Of a stretch of DNA of 64,000 nt, positions 19,782-22,700 are shown piece by piece. The position numbers are program-made. The DNA is taken from the NCBI RefSeq assembly GCF_058153355.1, contig NZ_CM177019.1, one strand, 5' to 3'. Position 1 is the first letter of the stretch. Each line of letters starts with the position of its first letter.

Positions 19782-22700
19782 TGATTTTCCGTTGAAATGC
19801 GATGTGCTGGTTTGTAGGCCTGATAAGACGCGCCAGCGTCGCATCAGGCATCCGCGCATAGCCGCCGGATGCGGCGTGAACGCCTTATCCGGCCTACCAA
19901 ACCGTGCTAATTCAATATTTATTTCTTCGTCAATTGCGTCACCACCAACTGGTGGCGCGAATTATAAAACTTACGATAGGTTAAATAGCAGGCAATAATG
20001 GTCGACAAGCTGGCGGTTGAGAGCAGCATAAAGGTCACCATAATCTGATACTTAATCGCCTTCACCGGATCAATCCCGGCAAATATCAGCCCGGACATCA
20101 TTCCCGGTAAACTCACTAAGCCAACCGTTTTTGCTGAATCCACCGTCGGAATTAAAGCCGCGCGAATACTGTCGCGAATCAATATCGCTGAAGCCTGTTT
20201 CGGCGTCGCGCCAAGACTCAGTTTCTCCTGAATCTGTTGTTGTTCGCTAATGACCCGTTGCCCTAAATTATTGTAACATAGCCCTACCGCCACCATCGCG
20301 TTACCGGCAATCATCCCTGCAATAGGAATCACCTGCATCGGGATAAACTCAATCGACCCTGAGAGAATCAGCACCGCCAGGGTAATTCCTGCCCCGACCG
20401 TAATGGCAATAAACGATGAGATAAAAGCTTTAGCAATATATTTACTGCGTTTTTGCGCGTTCCACGCCGCATTAAAGCAGATAAATAACACCATCAATAA
20501 TGTCAGGCTGGCATCATCCACGCTGAAAATATACTTCAGCACATAGCCGACAATAATCAGCTGAATTATCGCGCGCCCGACGCTCCAGAGAATATCTTTC
20601 TCCAGCGCCAGTTTTTCTTTATGGCTAATTAAGATTGCCACCACCACCAGCATTAATGCCAGTGCCAATGATTCGTTAGTAATATTATGCGAGTTCATAG
20701 CGTGCTTCCTGCATTTCTCCGGCATGCGGTTGCAGTGTAATCACTTTATCCGCATGATTAATTTCGTCTTTATCGTGTGTCACCCACAGCACGGCAATAT
20801 TTTGCTCGCGCACATAACGGTGGATCATCTCATTAACGTTATGTTTATTACTTTCATCCAGTGCACTGGTGATTTCATCCAGCAATAATACCTTTGGCAT
20901 AAATTGCAGGTTACGAATCAATGAGATGCGTTGTTTTTCACCACCAGATAGCTCGGCGATATTCTTTGTCAATATGCTGTCCGGCAAAGCGAAGCGTTCG
21001 AGAAAATCGAGAAAAATGGCTGGGTCAGGCTGCTGGTTACGGATCTGCCAGGGAAAGATCAGATTATCGTATACCGTATCGCCAAACAGCGTCGGCGTCT
21101 GGGCGCAGTAAGATACTTGCTGGCGGTAGATTTCTGGCTTGAGTGTACTGACATCCTCACCTTCAAACAGCAACGTTCCGCTGGTTGGGCTGATTAATGA
21201 AGCAACAATTTTCAGCAGCGTACTTTTGCCACAACCGGAAGGGCCGGTAATTAACTTAAATTCGCCAGCACGTAGCGAAAAATTGATGTTATTAAGAATC
21301 TTCGTATCACCCGCCAGATATCCTACGTTTTGTAGCTAAAGCAAAGGACTATTTTCCTGCATCGCTGTTCCCTTTTTCTGATTTTTACTAAAAACAGTTT
21401 ATCCTTCGCAGGAATAAGGGGGAACTCTCTTTCAGTAATCAGGTATAATTTGTTTAATCAAGCAGCAATTTTGCTGATTATGGACGGTACAACAGGAGGT
21501 TTTTCCGATGCTTATCTTTATCCCGATTCTCATTTTTGTCGCGCTGGTCATTGTCGGCGCGGGTGTTAAAATCGTGCCGCAGGGCTATCAATGGACGGTA
21601 GAACGCTTTGGTCGCTATACCAAAACGTTACAGCCGGGGCTCAGTCTGGTCGTGCCGTTTATGGATCGCATTGGTCGTAAGATCAATATGATGGAGCAAG
21701 TGCTCGATATCCCTTCTCAGGAAGTTATCTCGAAAGATAACGCCAACGTTACCATCGACGCGGTCTGTTTTATTCAGGTAATTGATGCCCCGCGCGCGGC
21801 TTATGAAGTCAGCAATCTGGAGCTGGCGATCATCAATCTGACCATGACTAACATCCGTACCGTACTGGGTTCAATGGAACTTGACGAAATGCTCTCTCAG
21901 CGCGACAGCATCAACTCACGCCTGCTGCGTATTGTCGATGAGGCCACCAACCCGTGGGGGATTAAAGTCACCCGTATTGAAATTCGCGACGTGCGCCCAC
22001 CGGCAGAGCTTATCTCTTCGATGAACGCGCAGATGAAAGCGGAACGTACCAAACGCGCTTACATCCTTGAAGCGGAAGGGATCCGTCAGGCGGAAATCCT
22101 CAAAGCCGAAGGTGAAAAACAGTCGCAAATCCTGAAAGCGGAAGGTGAACGTCAGTCGGCATTCTTACAGGCCGAAGCGCGTGAACGTTCTGCCGAAGCG
22201 GAAGCCCGCGCCACCAAAATGGTGTCTGAAGCCATCGCCTCCGGTGATATTCAGGCGGTGAACTACTTCGTAGCGCAGAAATACACCGAAGCGTTACAAC
22301 AGATCGGTTCGTCCAGTAACAGCAAAGTAGTGATGATGCCATTAGAGGCCAGCAGCCTGATGGGGTCGATTGCCGGGATTGCTGAACTGGTGAAAGACAG
22401 CGCCAACAAGCGGACTCAGCCATGATGGAGTTAATGGTCGTTCATCCACATATTTTCTGGCTCAGTCTCGGCGGGTTGTTGCTGGCAGCCGAGATGTTGG
22501 GCGGAAATGGTTATCTGTTGTGGAGCGGCGTGGCAGCGGTGATTACCGGCCTGGTGGTCTGGCTGGTGCCGCTGGGTTGGGAGTGGCAAGGGGTGATGTT
22601 TGCCGTCCTGACGCTGCTCGCCGCCTGGCTGTGGTGGAAATGGTTGTCGCGGCGGGTGCGCGAACAAAAGCACAGCGACAGTCATTTAAACCAGCGCGGG

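What the first reader, a model, noticed from the sequence alone, without database searches (positions are those of the whole stretch)
20685..21361. fetA appears inactivated at its 5' end
The track ORF for this ABC ATPase starts only at 21173, after the Walker A motif. Upstream I read ATG-QENSPLL followed by TAG at 21335-21337, and the GPSGCGKST P-loop segment is out of frame with that ATG, with a break near 21300. fetB downstream looks intact. The window also holds two other frameshifted genes, so sequencing error is a real alternative.
Basis: seen in the sequence. Interest (0 to 1): 0.45.

Follow-up and report, generated by a model that had tools for sequence, protein, structure and literature searches.

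The report
fetA knocked out by amber codon

Summary
fetA lies on the minus strand at 21362..20685, as 225 codons plus a stop in one continuous frame. Its only lesion is an in-frame TAG at codon 9 (21338-21336). Against intact orthologues this is a single C->T transition (CAG Gln9 -> TAG) with no indel. The claim that the P-loop is out of frame, with a break near 21300, is wrong.

With Gln9 restored, the protein is identical to the commonest FetA allele. The DNA differs from six such alleles at 22-29 synonymous sites and at no other non-synonymous site, so the knockout is recent. None of 5,319 matching complete E. coli genomes carries the TAG. Only two short public contigs encode the truncated product, and the one retrieved is 100% identical to the window. 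This rules out an assembly artefact but is not an independent isolate.

No canonical in-frame restart precedes codon 64, which lies after Walker A. TAG is a normal stop here. fetB and the promoter region are intact.

Most likely outcome is loss of FetA and hence of FetAB iron efflux. Published knockouts suggest mild peroxide sensitivity. The finding is ordinary and of low interest.

The parts
20685..21362 (-). fetA (ybbL) pseudogene: 225 codons plus TAA in one frame, interrupted only by TAG at codon 9
   Evidence: Translation. tblastn of an intact FetA aligns residues 1-225 in a single frame at 99.6%. With Gln9 restored it scores 347.6 bits against the NCBIfam FetA equivalog NF007601, cut-off 292.
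21336..21338 (-). Premature amber codon TAG (codon 9). It arises from a C->T change on the coding strand at 21338 (G->A on the + strand). Orthologues have CAG or CAA (Gln).
   Evidence: All 17 comparator loci encode Gln at codon 9. 0 of 5,319 complete E. coli genomes match the surrounding 61-mer exactly.
21339..21362 (-). The only part that can be translated from the native start: the 8-residue peptide MQENSPLL
21222..21245 (-). Walker A / P-loop GPSGCGKS (codons 40-47), in the same frame as the ATG and downstream of the stop
   Evidence: Motif positions come; the window coordinates are computed from the codon numbers.
20685..21173 (-). Longest residual ORF (TTG at codon 64 to TAA, 162 aa). 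It lacks beta-strand 1, Tyr15 and Walker A, and has no SD-like sequence upstream.
   Evidence: It scores 252.6 bits, below the FetA cut-off of 292, and covers only profile positions 59-204.
19919..20698 (-). fetB (ybbM) permease gene, intact. Its ATG overlaps the end of fetA by 14 nt.
   Evidence: One search shows the junction. TIGR00245 FetB equivalog scores 476.8 bits, cut-off 410. The exact protein is widespread and always lies next to a 225-aa FetA.
21363..21507 (.). qmcA-fetA divergent intergenic / promoter region. The 88 nt compared upstream of the fetA ATG are unchanged.
   Evidence: 21363-21450 is 100% identical to an intact-fetA strain. The divergent shared promoter is described in PMC10874397.

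Best explanation
A real and very recent point mutation turned Gln9 of fetA into an amber stop. It is a C:G->T:A transition at window 21338 (CAG->TAG). Ribosomes starting at the native ATG release an 8-residue peptide. This happens before the first beta-strand of the nucleotide-binding domain, and before Walker A, the Q-loop, the signature motif, Walker B and the H-loop. No functional FetA ATPase is therefore made (shown from the sequence). The FetB permease needs its ATPase partner, so the FetAB Fe(II) efflux pump is expected to be null or strongly hypomorphic (inferred). fetB expression may be reduced further, because about 650 nt of untranslated fetA mRNA precede it and the 14-nt overlap suggests translational coupling (inferred, not tested). 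From published K-12 knockouts, the expected phenotype is modestly higher sensitivity to peroxide and Fenton stress, and no lethality. In kind, this is an ordinary lineage-private pseudogene.
For: - One continuous frame with a single TAG at codon 9.
- One substitution and no indel at the lesion, compared with an intact orthologue.
- All 17 comparator loci have Gln9, as CAG or CAA.
- 0 of 5,319 complete E. coli genomes match the 61-mer around the TAG exactly; the best differ at one base.
- The Gln9-restored protein is exactly the commonest FetA allele (35,636 index blocks). The truncated product occurs on 2 contigs.
- 22-29 synonymous differences against only Q9* as a non-synonymous difference, compared with L015-L020. 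This indicates purifying selection until recently.
- The TAG is reproduced in the Logan assembly of SRR31441161, which is 100% identical to the window over 3,078 + 12,974 bp.
- Homology to ABC nucleotide-binding domains and the FetA profile both begin at residue 7.
- No ATG/GTG/TTG in frame between codons 10 and 63. Only a CTG at codon 16 has a weak AGGA upstream.
- TAG ends 3 of 25 intact genes in the window, and the window has no tRNA gene.
- Deleting fetA or fetB sensitises E. coli to H2O2 (Nicolaou et al. 2013 as summarised in PMC8803141). fetAB overexpression lowers intracellular iron (PMC10874397).
Against: - The Logan contigs are identical to the window over 16 kb. They are probably the same clone or even the same read set, so they exclude an assembly or polishing artefact but are not an independent isolate.
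- No reads could be inspected.
- No protein or phenotype data exist for this strain.
- Low-level UAG read-through cannot be excluded. By general knowledge it usually inserts Gln, which is the wild-type residue here, and the following base C makes a comparatively weak termination context.
- An amber-suppressor tRNA elsewhere in the genome cannot be excluded from a 64-kb window.
- Polarity on fetB is inferred only. fetB has its own AGGAAG upstream of its ATG and might still be translated.
Confidence: 0.86

Rival explanations
1. Sequencing or consensus error: the true genome has CAG at codon 9 and fetA is intact.
For: The window has two other broken genes, one of them a 1-base loss in a T8 run, which is a typical error context. 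The only other occurrences of the allele are contigs identical to the window, so they may come from the same data.
Against: The lesion is a substitution, not a homopolymer indel. A separate assembler (Logan) working from raw reads of SRR31441161 gives the same base, and two samples carry that contig. The non-homopolymer T1SS frameshift is reproduced there as well. This suggests real pseudogenes rather than noisy consensus.
Confidence: 0.06
2. Leaky or rescued allele: enough FetA is made for function. The routes would be an amber-suppressor tRNA elsewhere in the genome, near-cognate read-through of UAG-C inserting Gln (restoring the wild-type protein), or re-initiation downstream.
For: The stop is followed by C, a weaker termination context by general knowledge. 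The wild-type residue is Gln, which near-cognate tRNA-Gln would insert. The rest of the gene and the promoter-proximal 88 nt are pristine.
Against: TAG ends 3 of 25 normal genes in the window, so efficient suppression would be costly. The window has no tRNA. Background read-through is typically well under a few percent (general knowledge). No canonical restart codon lies before Walker A, and the CTG at codon 16 would remove beta-strand 1 and the only aromatic candidate for the adenine-stacking A-loop, Tyr15. The pristine state is equally explained by the mutation being recent.
Confidence: 0.06
3. Adaptive loss: the knockout was selected because retaining iron, or saving the cost of the pump, is advantageous in this lineage's niche. 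It may be part of a wider gene-loss trend that includes the adhesin T1SS.
For: Three disrupted genes lie within about 25 kb. fetA is occasionally disrupted elsewhere, for example an apparent IS1 insertion in strain 205 (H19).
Against: fetAB is nearly universal: 5,417 of 5,426 complete genomes hold at least 80% of the query. It is under strong purifying selection. The laboratory-evolution studies read here (phloroglucinol, and apparently gallium) selected promoter-region mutations, shown to raise fetAB expression for phloroglucinol, not loss. A single private allele cannot show selection.
Confidence: 0.03

Closest known systems
[quoted passage not shown] 2013)
   Same: Same locus and synteny: tesA-ybbO-cnoX-fetB-fetA-qmcA-ybbJ. 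With Gln9 restored the protein is identical to the commonest FetA allele and passes the curated FetA equivalog model. All ABC motifs are encoded in frame.
   Different: Codon 9 is TAG instead of CAG/CAA, so the protein cannot be made from the native start.
Ordinary strain-specific pseudogenes of E. coli/Shigella caused by single nonsense mutations
   Same: A single transition creates a premature stop in an otherwise conserved, non-essential gene. There is no secondary decay. It co-occurs with other small-lesion pseudogenes nearby.
   Different: Nothing unusual. This allele is simply absent from 5,319 complete genomes. The site is not a Dcm CCWGG deamination hotspot: the wild-type context is TTCAGCT (read).
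Other natural fetA disruptions, e.g. E. coli strain 205 (NZ_CM132944.1)
   Same: fetA is interrupted while fetB remains annotated (H19).
   Different: That one appears to be an IS1 insertion splitting the gene into two pieces. Here it is a point nonsense mutation.

Membership tests
FetA (NCBIfam NF007601, iron efflux ABC transporter ATP-binding subunit, equivalog) | Whole-protein score at or above the curated cut-off (292 bits) | tested here: met
   The conceptual translation with Gln9 restored scores 347.6 bits. The longest real ORF (162 aa) scores 252.6 bits, below the cut-off. The locus is therefore fetA by descent, but no encodable product qualifies.
FetA (NCBIfam NF007601, iron efflux ABC transporter ATP-binding subunit, equivalog) | Operon partner FetB (UPF0014 / TIGR00245 permease) immediately downstream, divergent from qmcA | tested here: met
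   FetB scores 476.8 bits, cut-off 410. There is a 14-nt overlap with fetA. Gene order is the same as in annotated genomes.
ABC transporter nucleotide-binding domain | Walker A, Q-loop, LSGGE/Q signature, Walker B and H-loop in order in one frame | tested here: met
   GPSGCGKS starts at residue 40, AQTP at 87, LSGGE at 138, LLLDE at 159 and VTHD at 194, all in the frame of the native ATG. There is homology to solved NBDs from residue 7.
Functional (expressed) fetA gene | Uninterrupted reading frame from the start codon to the normal stop | tested here: not met
   In-frame TAG at codon 9. No canonical restart before codon 64.
Pseudogene by nonsense mutation (real, not artefact) | Premature stop relative to orthologues, with the ancestral sense codon conserved | tested here: met
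   17 of 17 comparator loci have Gln9. 0 of 5,319 complete genomes carry the TAG context.
Pseudogene by nonsense mutation (real, not artefact) | The lesion is reproduced in independent sequence data | tested here: inconclusive
   The Logan contigs of SRR31441161 (two samples for the fetA contig) carry it. They are 100% identical to the window over 16 kb, so they may be the same clone or read set. Reads could not be inspected.
Pseudogene by nonsense mutation (real, not artefact) | Absence of the full-length protein / loss of FetAB function | not testable with these tools
   Needs proteomics or a western blot, plus H2O2 and iron phenotyping.

The most novel reading that the evidence does not exclude
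The amber codon gives a hypomorph rather than a null. Near-cognate read-through of UAG-C by tRNA-Gln would restore the exact wild-type FetA at a low level. A lineage-private mutation would then tune iron efflux down, possibly under selection for iron retention.
Probability: 0.07. Interest if true: 0.25.

Novelty: already known. Interest (0 to 1): 0.08.

Why it matters
The finding matters little beyond correct annotation. The locus should be labelled a fetA pseudogene caused by a nonsense mutation (Q9*), not a frameshift or a truncated 162-aa ABC protein. If the strain is ever phenotyped, loss of FetAB predicts somewhat higher sensitivity to peroxide and Fenton stress and slightly higher intracellular iron. 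The case also shows that an ORF track starting after Walker A can result from one in-frame stop, and need not mean a frame break.

Tried and rejected
- **Frameshift reading:** rejected. My first translation from 21361 was one base out of register. From 21362 the frame is continuous, and the alignment shows no indel.
- **Recoded or unusual genetic code:** rejected. TAG ends 3 of 25 intact genes in the window.
- **Local suppressor tRNA:** none found; the window has 0 tRNA genes.
- **Downstream restart giving a functional ATPase:** rejected. No ATG/GTG/TTG lies in frame before codon 64.
- **Dcm (CCWGG) deamination hotspot:** rejected. The wild-type context is TTCAGCT.
- **Identifying the source strain:** no complete RefSeq E. 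coli genome is closer than 99.7% over fetAB, 97.1% over 24 kb, or 98.3% over 16 kb of core genes. The strain stays unidentified.
- **The primary FetAB paper (PMC3837747):** not held. Its findings are cited second-hand from PMC8803141.
- **Metagenome and genome-collection DNA scans:** not run. The exact-protein index and the 5,426-genome search already answered how rare the allele is.

Full report
**What is in the sequence**

On the minus strand, fetA starts with ATG at 21362-21360 and ends with TAA at 20687-20685. Translating 21362..20685 gives one continuous frame of 225 codons plus the stop. It begins MQENSPLL*LQNVGYLAGDTKILNNINFSLRAGEFKLITGPSGCGKST and ends ARYELA*. The single internal stop is TAG at codon 9, window 21338-21336.

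The P-loop GPSGCGKS (codons 40-47, window 21245-21222) is therefore in the same frame as the ATG. My own first translation from 21361 was out of register for the same reason.

The mechanical ORF list starts at 21173 because TTG at codon 64 is the first ATG/GTG/TTG in frame after the TAG.

**What changed**

The closest intact fetA in complete genomes is in E. coli 2013C-4282 (locus L001). Against it the gene has the same length (678 nt) and differs at three substitutions:
- C->T at gene position 25, which turns CAG (Gln9) into TAG;
- one synonymous change at codon 130;
- R215G, where Gly is the common residue.

The 88 nt upstream of the ATG are identical. The lesion is a single C:G->T:A transition, not an indel. 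The wild-type context TTCAGCT is not a Dcm CCWGG site.

**Family identity**

- With Gln9 restored, the protein scores 347.6 bits on the curated NCBIfam FetA equivalog NF007601 (cut-off 292). The 162-aa remnant scores 252.6 bits and covers only profile positions 59-204.
- The downstream gene is FetB (TIGR00245, 476.8 bits against a cut-off of 410). It overlaps fetA by 14 nt.
- The gene order tesA-ybbO-cnoX-fetB-fetA-qmcA-ybbJ matches annotated E. coli genomes.
- Homology to solved ABC nucleotide-binding domains starts at residue 7, the first beta-strand.
- The stop at codon 9 therefore precedes every functional element: Walker A at 40, Q-loop near 87, LSGGE at 138, Walker B at 159 and the H-loop at 194.

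**How rare and how old**

- A 61-mer centred on the TAG matches 5,319 complete E. coli genomes, none of them exactly. The best differ at one base.
- The exact truncated product was found on only two short Logan contigs in an index of 153 billion gene positions. The Gln9-restored protein is listed in 35,636 blocks of the same index.
- Against six loci carrying that common protein, the window's fetA has 22-29 synonymous differences, and Q9* is the only non-synonymous one. All 17 comparator loci encode Gln9 as CAG or CAA.
- This is the signature of long purifying selection followed by a very recent knockout with no secondary decay.
- One caveat applies to the count. No complete genome is close to this lineage (at best 98.3% over 16 kb of core genes). 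The "0 of 5,319" figure shows the allele is not widespread, but not that it is confined to a single isolate.

**Real or error**

The Logan contig L002 (SRR31441161; two samples carry that contig) contains the TAG. The neighbouring Logan contig L004 contains the T1SS frameshift. Both are 100% identical to the window, over 3,078 and 12,974 bp.

This shows that an independent assembler reaches the same base from raw reads, so an assembly or polishing artefact is unlikely. The perfect identity also means these contigs are probably the same clone, so they are not an independent biological replicate.

The lesion is a substitution, and consensus errors of that kind are much rarer than homopolymer indels. 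Of the two other broken genes, one is a T8->T7 loss near 4598, which is an error-prone context. The other, near 28218, is CAGCAACGG->CAGCACGG, which is not a homopolymer. I put a real mutation at roughly 0.9.

**Can it be rescued**

- TAG terminates 3 of 25 intact genes in the window, and the window has no tRNA gene.
- Between codons 10 and 63 there is no canonical in-frame start. A CTG at codon 16 has a weak AGGA upstream, but a product from there would lack beta-strand 1. It would also lack Tyr15, the only aromatic candidate for the adenine-stacking A-loop (the A-loop assignment is inference).
- Background read-through of UAG followed by C could insert Gln and recreate the wild-type protein at a low level. 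This rests on general knowledge and was not tested here.

**Consequence**

FetAB is described as an Fe(II) exporter.
- Deleting fetA or fetB increases H2O2 sensitivity (Nicolaou et al. 2013, as summarised in PMC8803141). The primary paper was not available.
- Transposon insertions in fetA and fetB reduce fitness in a peroxide-generating model honey (PMC8803141).
- fetAB overexpression lowers intracellular iron and protects against phenol-iron Fenton killing (PMC10874397).
- A qmcA-fetA intergenic mutation swept in a gallium-selected population (PMC6928379).

The expected result here is loss of FetAB efflux and a modest oxidative-stress and iron-handling defect. Polarity on fetB is plausible, given about 650 nt of untranslated mRNA and overlapping genes, but it is only inferred. 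fetB has its own AGGAAG upstream of its ATG.

**Comparison and verdict**

fetAB is nearly universal in E. coli: 5,417 of 5,426 complete genomes hold at least 80% of the query. Sporadic disruptions exist, for example an apparent IS1 insertion in strain 205 (H19).

This locus is an ordinary, recent nonsense pseudogene of a well-known gene. The mechanism it gave (frameshift) does not. The sequencing-error alternative is unlikely but needs read-level confirmation. Interest is low.

Noticed in passing
window 26975-29136 (-), lesion near 28218: The type I secretion permease/ATPase (720 aa in relatives) next to the 6,224-aa SiiEA/BapA-like adhesin gene (29140-47814) is split by a 1-base deletion, CAGCAACGG->CAGCACGG, which is not a homopolymer. 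Export of the giant adhesin is probably disabled. The same split occurs in Logan contig L004.
   Followed up: partly
window ~4499-5295 (-), lesion near 4598: A hypothetical gene (266 aa in strain MFDS1022581) in the VgrG-associated island is frameshifted by loss of one T in a T8 run (T7 here). This could be slippage or a sequencing error. It was not checked in other assemblies.
   Followed up: partly
window 11973-14279 (-): A complete group II intron sits between a small hypothetical gene and ybbP. Rfam finds D1-D4 at 14132-14279 and domain V/VI at 11973-12049, flanking a 580-aa reverse transcriptase/maturase ORF at 12054-13796 (TIGR04416, 371 bits). It is absent at this site from the closest complete genomes. 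The best matches cover 91% at about 97% identity, on E. coli records of 86-150 kb whose size and hok-family annotation suggest plasmids.
   Followed up: partly
window 19919-21362: Mosaic ancestry inside the operon. Loci almost identical in fetA (1-2 synonymous differences: L001, L006, L008, L009) differ at 17-21 synonymous sites in fetB. Loci very different in fetA (40-47 synonymous plus 16-20 non-synonymous differences: L005, L007, L011, L013, L014) are closer in fetB (7-12 synonymous). This suggests a recombination breakpoint near the fetA/fetB junction and two deep FetA allele classes in E. coli.
   Followed up: no
whole window: The lineage is poorly represented among complete E. coli genomes. 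The best identity is 98.3% over 16 kb of core genes (copA-gsk) and 97.1% with 90% coverage over 24 kb. It may be a divergent E. coli lineage or cryptic clade. The source was not identified.
   Followed up: partly
window 19817-19894, 54721-54798, 55731-55814: Rfam matches to naRNA4 (REP-derived) between cnoX and fetB and again downstream of copA, and to the sRNA sroB at 55731-55814. These are ordinary E. coli features.
   Followed up: no
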